Assembly: GCA_964016885.1 (NCBI GenBank)
Contig: OZ024740.1
Coordinates: 330,398,001 to 330,462,000 of the forward strand
Direction: 5' to 3'
DNA from: Eledone cirrhosa
Taxonomy: Eukaryota
DNA: 64,000 nt
Part shown: in pieces, positions 1,570 to 55,738 of the stretch
Layout: each line of letters opens with the position of its first letter
How positions within the stretch are numbered: the stretch's first letter is position 1
The notes under the pieces: model-generated
Databases searched by the model: none
Seen by the model: only the letters and a program-made list of their open reading frames with translations
What the model was told of the DNA's origin: nothing
Made by a program: the position numbers and the translations under genes

Positions 1570-1662
1570 CATATGTGGCGCGTGTTTCGCAATCGATTAG
1601 CTCAATTCACGACCAGTAGTGTTGGGGCATGACACTGGAATCGATAGCTCATCAGACCTGTG
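1570..1662 (-). ncRNA. Type I hammerhead ribozyme motif with extended stem II (cleavage triplet mutated to GCC)
   Basis: Minus strand: cacaggt-CTGATGA-gctatcgatt...aatcgattgc-GAAAC-acgc-GCC-acatatg. Stem II pairs 9/10; stem I is partial. Confidence 0.7.
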
Positions 1663-2509
1663 GATTCACGGGAATATATATATATGTGTGTGTATGTGTT
1701 TGGTGTATGTGTATGTTTGTACAGTTTGATGGAGAGATAGATAGATTGGTACACACACACACCTGTATATATATATATATATATATATATATATATATAT
1801 ATATATATATATATATATATATATATAACACACACACGCACACACATACAAACACAAACACACACACCTATATATATATATTTATATAGATATAGATTTA
1901 GATATATTCTCATTTTAAACAAAATTATCCAGTCTATATAATAATCTTTATAATTTTATTGTTTGATTCGCCAGTATGAAATATCCAATTTATGTTAACA
2001 CCAATGTGTCACATTATGATAAGTGAATCATTAATAATATCTGTCTCATAGTAAATTTACCTAATTAAAAATATTAGATATTATGAAGATTACTTGTTCT
2101 ATAATATACCTAGAATTTATTTCCAATATTGACTGTAGGGCTGTTAGATTGTGGAAGTATAAAATCGATTAAATCTACATTAGTATGTGATTGTATTTCA
2201 TTTATCACATCCGGAAAATTGACGGTAAACTTGACACCATAACATATGAACTCAGAATAACGGAAGAATGTTTTAGTGAACGCATTTATCAAAGTATTTA
2301 TAAATTGTAGAAAACATTAATCACAGTTTCAAGGTAATTGCTTGAATTTAAAATGAATTATATACATCATTTGAAACTGTATATACAATGCGTTGAAAGT
2401 TTCGCTGTATATTATTCCTAAATAATTTTGACCTTAGATATCAAGAACGAACATCATCGCCTCCACTTGGATCGAGTTGTTAATACATTCCGACAGAAGG
2501 GACTTGTCA

Positions 2510-3100
2510 ATATTTCCACTTCCCCGAGCAGTCATTTCTGGTACCAGATCTGTATTTGGAATTTCCATCATTTATCTTAGTCTATAGCCGCTGTCGAAAT
2601 GAACATTTTAGAGGAAACTCCGATTATAACGTGCCAGTAGCATCTGGTGTCCTTTACGGGTTCCTGCTCTTAAATACCGTTATTAAATACTTGTTTCTAC
2701 TTTAGGCATAAGGCCAGCAATTACCCAGTGCATTACTGGTACTTTATTTTATCGACCCCGTAAGGATGAAAGGCAAAGTCAACCTCGGCGGGATTATTAA
2801 ATACTGCCGGCCAAAGAGATATGTTGGTCTCATCCGAGAAAAGGGGGAGGCTTACAAAGCATGGGTTGGTAAAAAAATACTCCTGCTTGCAAATACGATG
2901 GAGGGCGTGAAACTTAGCAGCAGAGTGGGCACAGGTGTCAAGCTTAAGACGTGAAAGGACATTTGATTTAAGCTGGGATCAGACGTAAAATCGACAAATA
3001 ATGTATTCTGGTACACCATCCTGTGACTCCGTAGTAACCATTTCGCCTCACGCATGCTTTCAGGACCTCGACCGAAAATAGTTGCATCCCTCCTAGGCGT
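2510..3100 (-). mobile_element. Old LINE (RTE-like) 3' fragment interrupted by a SINE
   Basis: Minus-strand remnants resembling LLYG..W (~3020-3040) and G.R.RGR (~2645-2670). No intact ORF. Confidence 0.35.
2692..2793 (-). mobile_element. 5'-truncated Nin-domain SINE with 12-bp TSD
   Basis: Reverse complement of gcctttcatccttacggggtcgataaaataaagtaccag. TSD ttattaaatact at 2680-2691 and 2794-2805. Confidence 0.88.
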
Positions 3101-3532
3101 AGAGAAAAAATGGCTTATCTACTAACCTAGTCACAAGAACATATTCTGATATACATCAGTGCATTTTAGAAGCGATATGTAAGCAATCTGAGACTGAAGT
3201 CACCGATGTCAAGGTATCAAAGGAATGATGAATTTCGGCTGCAAAATTAAAAGCCTTAAAAAGAGGAGTAATTATCCGGCTGTTCGTGGATATTTGAAAA
3301 GCCACATTAGCAATGACAATCGAGAGCGATAAGCCCGATTTTCAAAAAGTAAGGTATGTCTTATTATGTGTGTGAATGTATATATATATAAAATATAAAT
3401 ACATACATATTTATATACATATATGCATATAAACATACACACATATATATATATATATATATATATACATATATATATATATATATATATATATATACAT
3501 TCCTCTCTCTCTGTATATATATATATATATAT

Positions 3533-52580: not shown

Positions 52581-52739
52581 TTATATATATATATATATAT
52601 ATATATATATATATATATCAAAATGAAAATCCGAAGACAAGGTAAAATTTACAATAATTTTCATCCCGACACATGTTTAAATAAGAGATAGATCGATCGT
52701 GAAGCCATGATCAATTATCACTGATCTCATCAGGTGAAA

Positions 52740-54200
52740 AACTATGTCAACGCAAAATCGAAACACCCTAGAATAGTCACTAACGGTATTACCAAAAGTG
52801 TCTCTCGTAGAATTTTAGGACTATCTTCCAATGAAGATACCTTTAATAGGATCTCGAATTACTATAATAGTGTCCTGGAACGTGCGGGGCATAGCGAGCG
52901 AATCTCATTCAAACGTCCATTAAATAGTAGTAGCAACATTGCCTGCGATAGATTAGGCCAACATAGTGATACTTTAATTAACAGCAGGCGGGATACGAGG
53001 GAGGATGAATATAGACTTCATGTTGTATTGCCTCCTAGTCCCAATGTTGATGGTACCAATGGAAACAACCACCCAGTTACTAACACAGGGTCTAATTGTA
53101 AAGTCTAATTGTAACCTTAATTGTAGAATTGATAAAACCGTTGAACGTAAAATGGAACGCCTGTCGAGTAAAGGGAATAGGGATAGGTGTAGCAGGCGCA
53201 TAGTGGATATAACCCCGGCTATGGAGGGTAATCCCAATGGCTGCACGGGGTACACCGCCCCGAGACTTGGGACGATTCCGAACACAATCGGGACACCTCA
53301 GGACACCAGCAACCCACAGCCAGTGTTCAGTTATAATAGACCAGTAGCTACTAAGGAGACGGGTAACTTTAATATAGTTAGTAAGAACAAGAGGCATCAG
53401 ACCAGGAAAATCCTGTGGTATAACCCTCCTTACTCCACTGGCCTGACCACTAGTATAGCTAAGCTTTTCTTTAGAGCCTTAGACAAATGCTTCCCTAGAT
53501 CACACATATACTATAACATATTTAATAGGAATACCATCAAGCTGTCCTACTCCACAACCAGTAACACAGTTCAGAATATAGCTAAGATGAATTATATTAG
53601 ACTTAGGACAGCCCAAGGGGGGGGGGGGCTAGACATGGCAGAACTAATGGCAGCTCTATGGATGAACGGACTCATACACGTGAGGCGAGTCGGGTCACCC
53701 AACCTCTGGGAATTTATCCATAGAGCAGACAAGAACTGAATCCCGACAACAGAGGTACAGTGGTTCCTCTGGAACTACCCAGGTCGATAACAGAAAATTT
53801 AATTGCAGGAACACTGCCACTTGCCCCATGGCTGGGAAATGCCTCACCAAAAACATAGTCTACGACTGTAAGGTTTCCACTCTTAATAGAACCTTCAGGT
53901 ATGTTCGGGCAACTGCCACTGAATTTAAGGTTAGATGGTATAATCACCGCCATACCTTTAATAGATTAGATAAAACAAAATAACACGGCGCTTTCTGAAT
54001 TAGTCTGGAAGCTTAAACAACAGAATATAGAGCACTCCTTATCATGGTCCATAATTTTCTCAGCCCAGCCTTATAACGGCAGCAATGGCGTCTGTAATTT
54101 GTGTATAGCTGAAACCTATTAATTAATAGGAGAGCGGATTTTTTCAGCAACTGCCAGCATAGAACCTCGAAAACCTTCCGCCGGATTTTTGGAGAATAAA
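52740..54200 (+). pseudogene. PLE RT thumb, linker and GIY-YIG endonuclease (frameshifted)
   Basis: ORFs 52734-53108 and 53005-53739 plus manual translation of 53798-54165. Confidence 0.86.
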
Positions 54201-55660
54201 CTACCACTAACTCCTCCCTCTCTACTTTAGCCATAGAGTTCTCTAAATAAACAGACAATCATTCACTCAGGTAGTTAGACGGCTTAGATCGTTTGCGCAC
54301 TTACAAACGGTACTCGGCCTGTTTCCACAGAGTTCTCACAGCTGAGTGCACTTTAGCATACCTAGTTATTAAATAATTAGAATGATTACACACTCAGAAT
54401 ACCTAGTTAGTGAATGGTTACACACTCAGGCAAGATCGATTACCTTTACTTTAAGATATTCTAACCATTGAGTTCTCTCGGTTGGGATATAGCTAGACGT
54501 ATTGCACACTCAGTTAAGACCGCTCTCCATACATAACTCTACACACAGTACCCGTTTTCTTTAGACAAGGAGTTCCCACAGTTACGACTGGTCACGTTCC
54601 TACCGATTGAACACTACACTAGGTTTTGATCATCTAATCATGGAGTGCTCACAGTTACGGATGGAACAATAATACTGACACACCATTAATGGGCCTACAC
54701 ACACCCTCTGGGTTTTGCTATCCTTTGTTATTTTACTTTACTTTTTGTGTTGGATAACACACCTCCACCACTCACACACCTATCTTAAAAGCCCAAGGGC
54801 CAATATGATGGGAAATCGCACTTATTGACACCTTAACCCAAATACCCAACCCTACACGGAGCGCCTTGTGGCCTACATAGCCATTGCTTGCACGCACAGA
54901 AAGGGGACTCGGATTATCAATGTGACAGCGGTACATACTGAGTTCGATATGAGCTGATTGCTTGCTCTTCACATGGATGTGTATATACCTAGACATACAT
55001 TTGTTGGACGATACGGATGTGTATATACCATAACATACACTATTTGGAGATACAGATGTTACAATTCAATCTATGCACGTATAGCAGAACACTGAACTGA
55101 ACTTACATGATTGTGTGTGTATGTCTGTGTGTATGGGGCTATGGTTGACCCAATATTTCCAATTTGCATCGTCAAATTGAGATTTAACCAATGTAGCATT
55201 TGTTGTTTTGTAAACTAACTTTCGGTGAATGCTATGTTGCTATATTCTTATATTTATTGTTTTTTTCTTTGACATCGCTTCGGTGTGTATGAGAGCGTGT
55301 GTACTCACTCACACTAATTGTGACCGTGTATAGTTCTACAGATTTGATACTGTGTTGATGTGTTGATGTGTGTATATATATATTTTTTTTTCTTTGACCT
55401 CGAGTCGGTGTGTGTGGGTGTTGACTGTGTGGGTACCCACTCACATTAACTGTGACCGACTGTATTTCTACAGATCTGATTGATGTCCAGCGTCTTTTGC
55501 AGCTATTGGGATATAGAAATTTGATAGTTTTATGACCTTAACTGAAGTTGATAGCAGTCGCCGCATTTTGACTGCTTGATCTTCATATGAGGGAGTATAA
55601 ACTCTTTGAGTGAACATTGCTAATTTTCTCCCTCATATCAAGGATTTTAAGACAATTTAT

Positions 55661-55738
55661 TATCACCTGATGAGATCAATGATAATTGATCATGGCTTCA
55701 CGATCGATCTATCTCTTATAGAAACATGTGTCGTGATT
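55661..55738 (+). ncRNA. Type I hammerhead motif in the PLE pLTR; cleavage after 55732 (GUC); mutated mirror copy ~52663-52737 on minus
   Basis: atcac-CTGATGA-[gatcaat-gata-attgatc...]-GAAAC-atgt-GTC-gtgat. The base of stem II is not canonical. Confidence 0.7.

What the first reader, a model, noticed from the sequence alone, without database searches (positions are those of the whole stretch)
1570..55738. Window-wide system: at least six unrelated hammerhead-ribozyme families in fold-back/tandem units targeted to (TA)n, next to their likely PLE helpers
Seen: CTGANGA...GAAA...NUH cores with pairing stems I and II at 1570, 3952, 13116, 14097, 20363, 23333, 23820, 24336, 24677, 24807, 26746, 27219, 27785, 52317, 52463, 52663 and 55661. 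Most have a 1-2 bp stem III, usually with a palindromic loop (ACTAGT, ACGATCGT, ACACGTGT, ACATGT). Nearly all lie in units bounded by (TA)n and arranged as inverted or partial-tandem arrays. Known: minimal type I HHRs that act as dimers are typical of Penelope-like pLTRs and of non-LTR retrozymes, and PLEs make tandem/inverted insertions. Inference: the non-coding families are non-autonomous ribozyme retroelements (or solo pLTRs) mobilised by GIY-YIG PLEs like the two in this window, together forming a palindrome-generating system at TA microsatellites.
Basis: partly seen in the sequence, partly recalled or inferred. Interest (0 to 1): 0.9.

Follow-up and report, generated by a model that had tools for sequence, protein, structure and literature searches.

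The report
Penelope retroelement ends, twin-primed insertions
The hammerhead motifs (RNAs predicted to cut themselves) are real but are mostly the ordinary tail ends of several Penelope-type jumping genes that fill this genome's TA repeats, plus one protein-free repeat; their back-to-back pairs nearly always join one short and one long end, and two pairs share private editing-like marks, so both halves are likely copied from a single RNA starting at both cut DNA ends.

Summary
All 17 sites are real type I hammerhead (HHR) homologues; 13 have an intact core. A seventh family (25201, minus strand) was missed. The window is not a local system: HHR density here matches a genome sample (70 in 800 kb; 16 families). 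Five families (B, C, D, E, G) are 5'-truncated 3' ends of their own coding Penelope-like elements (PLEs; one Neptune-type, four Hydra-type), a known arrangement with known (TA)n preference. Only family A is a true non-coding 445-nt tandem (retrozyme); its helper was not found. F is old and unresolved. Beyond the finding: each family has two fixed 3' ends (short, long). Of 62 fully resolved inverted pairs, 61 join one short and one long end; either arm can be the longer; four pairs do not overlap; two pairs share private A-to-G marks in both arms. Best model: both ends of one cut prime reverse transcription on one RNA at two staggered sites. Cleavage, circles and this model are untested. The scan noted these elements many times before, here and in other genomes, including a single-RNA idea.

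The parts
1570..1661 (-). Family F HHR (core 1654, helix II 60 nt); cleavage triplet altered; old family, no ORF link found
3534..4213 (.). Family A fold-back: long-end arm 3534-3792 (-), short-end arm 3792-4213 (+), HHR core 3958; (TA)n both sides
12935..13383 (+). Family B: 5'-truncated 3' end of a Neptune-type PLE, HHR core 13121, long end at (TA)n
14047..14280 (-). Older B-like copy, HHR core 14135, weak helix I
20181..23522 (.). Family C fold-back of a decayed Hydra-type PLE: long-end arm (-, HHR core 20490), short-end arm (+, core 23340, SINE inserted at 23151-23338); endonuclease remnants 21240-21796 (-) and 21798-22408 (+)
23555..24583 (.). Family A fold-back: long-end arm (-, core 23855), short-end arm (+, core 24342 with G8 changed)
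24644..25075 (.). Family D fold-back (3' end of a Hydra-type PLE): short-end arm (-, core 24790), long-end arm (+, core 24814); helix II 88 nt
25106..25265 (-).
25810..26411 (.). Family H fold-back: short/long 3' ends of a very young Neptune-type PLE, truncated downstream of its HHR (no HHR in this copy)
26425..27486 (.). Family A: long-end arm (-) joined to a two-unit tandem (+, cores 26752 and 27225, 473 nt apart) with short end
27505..27965 (-). Family A long-end arm, core 27821, helix I damaged
52178..52581 (.). Older family B fold-back: short-end arm (-, core 52357 with U4 changed), + arm (core 52468) cut at +133
52618..55918 (.). Family E fold-back of a decayed Hydra-type PLE: short-end arm 52618-52740 (-, G12 changed), long-end arm to 55918 (+, core 55668), ORF remnants 52716-54193
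13416..13920 (.). Further fold-back with one flush and one tailed end at (TA)n; no HHR; family not identified
56085..56424 (.). Further fold-back with one tailed and one flush end at (TA)n; no HHR; family not identified

Best explanation
The sites are the HHR-bearing 3' ends of at least five coding Penelope-like element families plus one non-coding 445-nt tandem retrozyme (A), inserted into (TA)n, and each fold-back is likely one event in which a PLE enzyme cuts both strands and both DNA ends prime reverse transcription on a single RNA, one at the short and one at the long start site downstream of the HHR. SHOWN: family structure, ORF linkage of B, C, D, E, G, fixed short/long 3' ends, variable 5' truncation, TA preference, the one-short-one-long rule, shared A-to-G marks in two pairs. 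INFERRED: double-strand cut at (TA)n by the GIY-YIG domain; two internal start sites (shown in vitro only for an anole Poseidon element); the rear cDNA displacing or stopping at the front one; joining of the two cDNA 3' ends by short microhomology; mobilisation of A in trans by an unidentified PLE; self-cleavage as a dimer through the palindromic helix III. The HHR is copied intact into the DNA, so the template was uncleaved or religated there.
For: ORF linkage: a same-strand PLE ORF lies within 1.5 kb upstream of the HHR in 25 of 30 B, 14 of 30 C, 9 of 30 D (1-2 of these are other families), 1 of 30 G and 2 of 30 E loci (E's ORF ends about 1.5 kb upstream; it is visible in the window); HHR-ORF-HHR units for B (L225, about 4.06 kb) and G (L222, 3.98 kb). 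A: upstream of the HHR lies only more A unit in 30 of 30 loci, up to four head-to-tail units; core deviates at 3 of 352 cells against 625 of 6339 elsewhere. Two 3' ends per family: A +250-260/+311-318, B +202-206/+261-263, C +186/+316-323, D +156/+266, E +118/+252-258. Of 93 divergent pairs scored, 70 have both ends at these sites: 65 short+long, 5 alike; with both ends also abutting a microsatellite, 61 of 62 (A alone 15 of 16). In the unbiased sample 12 of 14 pairs were short+long, 1 alike, 1 unresolved. Of 65 short+long pairs of B, C, D, E, H the short arm reaches further 5' in 22, the long arm in 21, about equal in 22; in 4 the long arm holds only the tail and stops before the short site. 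Pair L331: 35 A-to-G changes shared by both arms, 2 in one arm only, of 365 A sites; next-best scored copy 89%. Pair L025: 8 shared A-to-G changes, absent from 24 nearest copies but for one site in one copy. Frangieh et al. 2024 (PMC11167929): both strands cut and extended, two internal start sites equal to the tail ends, dimer predicted.
Against: Both edited pairs have the long arm longer or about equal, so they alone also fit a fold-back copy of one cDNA; no edited pair with a longer short arm was found. An edited source locus missing from the assembly or unscored (40 of 2290 and 40 of 2037 candidates scored) would also give shared marks. 22 of 65 pairs are near-perfect palindromes, as self-priming predicts. 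One sampled pair (L247) ends at the same site on both arms; 15 of 93 pairs have an end at neither site and 8 are cut by the locus edge. Most loci were top hits, hence young and biased by the query. Frangieh et al. saw no difference in start site between strands and priming without homology, in another clade. No pLTR related to A was found in the sequence held. Monomer folds are not more stable than shuffles (z -0.7 to -1.8, F +0.6); dimers of minimal HHRs cleaved poorly (Cervera 2014) and 8 of 9 Xenopus dimers not at all (Li 2026).
Confidence: 0.62

Rival explanations
1. Same elements, but fold-backs arise by self-priming: one cDNA primed at the long site folds back at a local palindrome and copies itself up to the short site (or an antisense template is used, as Arkhipova et al. 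2013 proposed).
For: 22 of 65 pairs have 5' ends within 30 nt, several identical; 21 more have the long arm longer; both edited pairs fit; palindromes at inverted junctions are published (PMC3846280, passages).
Against: In 22 of 65 pairs the short arm is the longer one and in 4 the arms do not overlap; a self-copy cannot be longer than, or lie outside, its template.
Confidence: 0.15
2. Both ends are primed on RNA, but on two separate RNA molecules held in one asymmetric complex, possibly paired through the palindromic helix III of their hammerheads.
For: Explains overlapping arms without strand displacement; helix III loops are self-complementary across 16 loop words; an asymmetric complex could also give the short+long rule.
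Against: 35 of 37 and 8 private A-to-G changes are identical in both arms, unlikely for two independently edited RNAs; family B lacks a palindromic loop yet obeys the rule in 35 of 35 pairs; HHR mutants inserted normally in vitro (PMC11167929).
Confidence: 0.13
3. One reading: several non-coding ribozyme families moved by the two local PLEs form a dedicated palindrome-generating system in this window.
For: A is non-coding and carries the PLE insertion signature; many units cluster at 23.5-28 kb.
Against: B, D, G have their own ORFs; local PLEs are broken and share no sequence with A; density is genome-typical; copies nest in each other's TA flanks.
Confidence: 0.05
4. Family A spreads mainly as satellite DNA (local tandem duplication, recombination at TA runs), not by PLE reverse transcription.
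For: One array has near-identical units sharing 7 rare variants (L271); no A-to-G hyper-edited A copy among 244 segments; no helper found.
Against: Dispersed on many contigs at 96-99% identity; fixed short/long 3' ends, 5' truncation and short+long inverted arms as in coding PLEs; core conserved.
Confidence: 0.05

Closest known systems
Minimal hammerheads in pLTRs of metazoan PLEs (Cervera and De la Pena 2014, PMC4209133; parts 1-2 of 4 read: abstract, results, discussion)
   Same: Many consensus families per genome, mostly single motifs from truncated PLEs; pairs 100-700 bp apart on opposite strands; short palindromic helix III; unpaired base at the foot of helix II; dimer model.
   Different: Helix II here reaches 47-116 nt in C, D, E, F (7-8 bp there); count far higher (85,000-208,000 on four contigs, against about 9,000 in Xenopus tropicalis; descriptors differ).
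Hydra-clade PLEs, including Hydra-1_Obim of Octopus bimaculoides (Craig et al. 2021, PMC8557442; section 11, passages, supplement rows and protein excerpt read)
   Same: C-terminal GIY-YIG without CCHH, CxCx5C linker, CxxC and CxH around E and N, HHR near the 3' end, (TA)n insertion, inverted copy with a tail often at one end only.
   Different: Several families rather than one; G unit 3.98 kb (most Hydra under 3 kb); tails 60-140 nt (30-40 there); the listed Obim HHR differs from all seven families (compared by eye); strict short+long count is not given there.
Neptune-clade PLEs (motifs as described in Craig et al. 2021)
   Same: Families B and H: RT then CX4CxxC linker then GIY-YIG; partial tandems with the pLTR overlapping the ORF start; asparagine-rich insert as in rotifer PLEs (PMC3846280, passages).
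   Different: Clade assigned by motif only; no tree run.
Animal non-LTR retrozymes (Cervera and de la Pena 2020, PMC7229834, passages and Discussion; Li, Clavereau and Pollet 2026, 10.64898/2026.07.22.740005, parts 1-3 of 5)
   Same: Family A: 445-nt head-to-tail unit, one type I HHR per unit, no ORF, 37% G+C; U-U at the foot of helix II as in axolotl HHR_Amex2; PLE proposed as helper.
   Different: Those texts argue from co-occurrence and pLTR homology; here A shows the PLE insertion anatomy itself but no homologous pLTR; expression, cleavage and circles untested.
Poseidon element of the anole in vitro (Frangieh et al. 2024, PMC11167929; parts 1-2 of 4 and passages) and L1 twin priming (recalled, not read)
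   Same: Two internal start sites downstream of the HHR; both strands cut and extended; AT-rich target; inverted arms joined by short overlaps.
   Different: That paper does not link the two sites to inverted pairs; in L1 twin priming (recalled) arms do not overlap, here most do.

Membership tests
Type I minimal hammerhead | CUGANGA, GAAA, UH core with helices I and II | tested here: met
   13 of 17 window sites; all 7 family majorities
Type I minimal hammerhead | 1-2 bp helix III with self-complementary loop | tested here: met
   A, C, D, F, G perfect, E with G-U pairs; B not
Type I minimal hammerhead | Rfam family match at gathering score | tested here: not met
   A: Hammerhead_HH9 17.6 bits against 52; B none; none in the top 150 of 273 rows for the window
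Type I minimal hammerhead | Self-cleavage as monomer or dimer | not testable with these tools
   needs an assay
Hydra-clade PLE (C, D, E, G) | C-terminal GIY-YIG-type domain with CxCx5C linker, CxxC/CxH, no CCHH | tested here: met
   full linker in C and D; first C replaced in E and G; CxxC..E..N..CxH in C, D, G; read by eye, Pfam gave no relevant hit
Hydra-clade PLE (C, D, E, G) | RWK and DKT motifs | tested here: inconclusive
   G shows RWR and DKS in broken frames; N-termini of C, D, E not recovered
Hydra-clade PLE (C, D, E, G) | HHR near the 3' end and (TA)n insertion | tested here: met
Hydra-clade PLE (C, D, E, G) | Length under 3 kb | tested here: not met
   G unit 3.98 kb; others not measured; described as general, not strict
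Hydra-clade PLE (C, D, E, G) | RT phylogeny within the clade | not tested
   reference set not available as tool sequences; excerpt compared by eye
Neptune-clade PLE (B, H) | RT, CX2-5CxxC linker, C-terminal GIY-YIG | tested here: met
   Pfam RVT_1 E=1.3e-4 and GIY-YIG E=2.7e-4, both under the gathering score
Neptune-clade PLE (B, H) | RT phylogeny (Neptune versus Nematis) | not tested
   no tree run
Non-LTR retrozyme (A) | Head-to-tail units with a type I HHR in each | tested here: met
   444-473 nt; two to four units in 6 of 30 loci
Non-LTR retrozyme (A) | No coding capacity, G+C under 45% | tested here: met
   only A unit upstream in 30 of 30 loci; 2 PLE hits lie about 1.2 kb away, outside the insertions; 37% G+C
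Non-LTR retrozyme (A) | Expressed, self-cleaved, circular RNA | not testable with these tools
   no RNA holder listed
Non-LTR retrozyme (A) | Homology to a PLE pLTR | tested here: inconclusive
   none in the loci then held, a small part of the genome
Non-LTR retrozyme (F) | Tandem units | tested here: not met
   0 of 30 loci tandem, 2 inverted; no ORF in 30; two 3' ends suggest an old PLE stump

The most novel reading that the evidence does not exclude
PLE inverted insertions are made by an asymmetric enzyme dimer on one RNA: each end of a double-strand cut in (TA)n primes at a different one of two fixed internal sites, which explains the tail, the fold-backs and their one-short-one-long rule across Hydra- and Neptune-type elements; a protein-free retrozyme uses the same route, giving direct genomic evidence that PLEs move retrozymes, in a genome with well over 100,000 intact-core hammerheads.
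Probability: 0.55. Interest if true: 0.7.

Novelty: new member of a known kind. Interest (0 to 1): 0.45.

Why it matters
The elements themselves are known kinds, and a Hydra PLE with (TA)n preference is already listed for an octopus. What adds value is mechanistic. Craig et al. name the origin of tandem/inverted PLE structures as open, and the retrozyme papers propose but do not show a PLE helper. The short+long rule, non-overlapping pairs and shared editing marks turn both into simple tests in an existing in vitro system. The genome also appears very rich in hammerheads (about 90 per Mb on the four contigs sampled), which makes such counts easy.

Tried and rejected
Rfam scan of the whole window: microsatellite-driven miRNA matches only in the rows shown. 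A strict descriptor needing a first pair in helix II missed family A (U-U at its foot) and was relaxed. Core-like words at 9068, 15708, 38799, 62942, 7596 gave no hit under the exact-core descriptor and were dropped as chance. Expression: no RNA holder listed. Contigs of two other organisms hold family A with an unchanged core, too few for covariation. Helper of A: not found by DNA similarity. Rolling-circle test on A tandems: mixed, 1 of 7 unit pairs near-identical with shared rare variants, others differ by 2-10%; no pile-up of 5' ends at the cleavage site seen by eye among 30 loci (low power, query-biased). Edited A copies: none in 244 segments. The 5 alike-ended pairs were looked at: L254 has its long arm split by a SINE and L259 has an arm cut by a nested insertion, L330 is an internal pLTR, L016 and L022 are complex or run on. 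A second search for F added nothing. Protein search returned 12 relatives without useful names. Contigs other than C1-C4 (46% of the assembly) were not sampled. Literature: searches for hammerhead+Penelope+octopus, cephalopod+Penelope+hammerhead ribozyme, Penelope+twin priming+pLTR and Penelope-like+GIY-YIG+inverted+tail+mechanism since 2022 listed no paper stating the short+long rule or single-RNA priming; older subscription papers (Evgen'ev and Arkhipova 2005, Pyatkov 2004) were not seen, nor figures, nor the bioRxiv supplements of Li et al.
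Full report
Setting. The window is G000:C1:330398001-330462000 of a 3.0-Gb, TA-rich animal genome. It looks octopod: its Hydra-type proteins resemble, by eye, Hydra-1_Obim in the supplement of Craig et al. 2021, and its main SINE looks like octopus SINEs (recalled). 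The species was not determined.

Observation. All 17 coordinates hold hammerhead-family sequence. Thirteen keep the full core and UH; four do not (1570, 24336, 52317, 52663). They fall into six families, here A (3952, 23820, 24336, 26746, 27219, 27785), B (13116, 14097, 52317, 52463), C (20363, 23333), D (24677, 24807), E (52663, 55661) and F (1570). A seventh, G (core 25201, minus), was missed. A relaxed descriptor gave 8 hits against a shuffle mean of 0.155 (200 shuffles). Each family is repeated genome-wide: 270-2459 first-look candidates, lower bounds, and all 30 loci fetched per family held the HHR.

Is the window special? In 80 evenly spaced 10-kb stretches of contigs C1-C4 the descriptor found 75 motifs, 70 with helix II of 4 pairs or more, against 0-3 and 0-1 in 10 shuffles, in 16 families. 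The window has 9 by the same rule against 5.6 expected; 20% of resampled equivalents reach 9. Bootstrap gives 85,000-208,000 motifs on these four contigs (54% of the assembly; the rest was not sampled). For scale, Cervera 2020 counts 126,247 in the axolotl with another descriptor. A (TA)8 run starts within 350 nt downstream of 52 of 68 motifs and ends within 350 nt upstream of 29; random positions 18% (36% in the same stretches); SINE control 8 of 56 on each side. The TA preference is real, 3'-biased and genome-wide; the window is ordinary.

What the families are. Copies share a fixed 3' end at (TA)n and vary at the 5' side. [quoted passage not shown] C, D, E and G extend into related ORFs (30-49% identity, 61% over short blocks) with the CxCx5C linker and CxxC/CxH motifs that Craig et al. 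give for the Hydra clade; L222 is an HHR-ORF-HHR unit of G. Craig et al. already list an octopus Hydra element with (TA)n preference. An eighth family, H (25810-26411), is a Neptune-type element with copies 100% identical over the query and an open 1217-codon frame; the window copy stops short of its HHR. F is old (74-80% to the window copy), with no ORF or tandem in 30 loci; unresolved. A alone is non-coding: upstream of its HHR lies only more of its 445-nt unit in 30 of 30 loci, up to four units. Its HHR has the canonical layout (weak match to Hammerhead_HH9, 17.6 bits), a core that varies about ten times less than the rest, and is unchanged at the core in contigs of two other organisms. It has a 467-nt sister family at 65% identity but no related pLTR in the sequence held.

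The fold-backs. Every family has two 3' ends 40-140 nt apart, matching the tail that Frangieh et al. traced to two internal RT start sites. Of 93 divergent pairs scored, 8 were cut by a locus edge and 15 had an end at neither site; of the other 70, 65 join one short and one long end. Requiring a microsatellite at both ends, 61 of 62 do. The five alike-ended pairs were split, nested, internal or complex. In the unbiased sample 12 of 14 pairs were short+long, one (L247) ended alike, one was unresolved. Nine of 12 inverted structures in the window show the same, three are unclear. A tail at one end only is published qualitatively (Arkhipova 2013; Craig 2021). With more B loci, 65 of 74 pairs of B, C, D, E, H were short+long: the short arm reaches further 5' in 22, the long arm in 21, about equal in 22, and in 4 the long arm is only the tail and stops before the short site. 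Many junctions overlap by a few bases. A self-copy of one cDNA cannot give the 22, so both arms were likely primed separately.

One RNA or two. Three B insertions carry strand-specific A-to-G excess, read as ADAR-type editing (inference). Two have partner arms. In L331 both arms share 35 A-to-G changes with 2 unshared, and no other scored copy exceeds 89% identity to that stretch. In L025 both arms share 8, absent from the 24 nearest copies but for one site in one copy. The changes are A-to-G in element sense on both arms, so this is not a re-inserted edited hairpin. Both arms thus go back to one edited template, unless an edited source locus was missed. In both pairs the long arm is longer or about equal, so they do not by themselves exclude fold-back; no edited A copy was found.

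Mechanism. Likely: a PLE protein, predicted elsewhere to be a dimer, cuts (TA)n on both strands; each end primes on the same RNA, one at each start site; the cDNAs stop at variable points and are joined; later elements insert into the flanking TA, giving clusters such as 23.5-28 kb. The HHR lies upstream of both start sites and is copied whole, so the template is uncleaved or religated; the data do not decide between multimer and circle. The HHRs of a fold-back are on opposite strands, so fold-backs are not the dimeric ribozyme; direct repeats (pLTR-ORF-pLTR, A tandems) could be. Cleavage is untested, and published dimers were weak or inactive.

Verdict. The elements are new members of known kinds (PLE pLTR hammerheads of Hydra and Neptune type; one retrozyme). 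Cervera 2014 already describes many families per genome, truncated single copies and opposite-strand pairs. The scan's earlier notes report the same kinds many times, some with a single-RNA or both-ends idea; these are unchecked AI notes, not support. The counted short+long rule and shared edits were not found in the papers listed and make an open question testable. Interest 0.45.

Noticed in passing
window 25810-26411; L328 1021-4671: Family H: very young Neptune-type PLE, many copies 100% identical over 226 nt, 4117-bp tandem units, open 1217-codon frame with an asparagine-rich insert; its HHR has a very short helix I.
   Followed up: yes
L047/L331, L054/L332, L025: Family B copies with strong A-to-G excess on the sense strand (81 in 1344 nt, 38 in 891 nt against L034), editing-like marks fixed in DNA.
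   Followed up: yes
window 3870, 27137 (+), 27909 (-): Octamer ATGCAAAT about 90 nt upstream of the family A core, kept in the 467-nt sister family; recalled as an snRNA-type promoter element; could drive A transcription.
   Followed up: partly
L250, L259, L262, L284, L168, L205: Tails of several different families share a short GAGTGCT-like word between the short and long ends; a candidate protein-binding site.
   Followed up: no
window C, D, E, F sites: Helix II is extended to 47-116 nt, long enough to escape usual descriptors.
   Followed up: partly
L267 5601-6068; L255 5875-7548: Two further tandem HHR families: a 467-nt relative of A with short/long ends, and a 558-nt four-unit array ending at (TA)n.
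   Followed up: partly
window 1-1424 and 41406-45112; 35328-40539; 60778-63724: Three decayed non-LTR retrotransposon-like ORF sets (RT and endonuclease motifs seen by eye; clades not tested).
   Followed up: no
window 2676-2802, 5096-5445, 23151-23338, 33175-33589, 34692-35030, 56940-57131: A roughly 190-nt SINE-like family, often in direct tandems, about 79 copies per Mb in the sample; not TA-associated.
   Followed up: partly
window 28035-28110, 31643-31976: Small inverted repeats with one end at TA and an unclear other end; possibly more PLE stumps.
   Followed up: partly
L218 3592-5019: A further PLE ORF without the linker cysteines pattern of B (Poseidon-like by eye) near an E copy.
   Followed up: no
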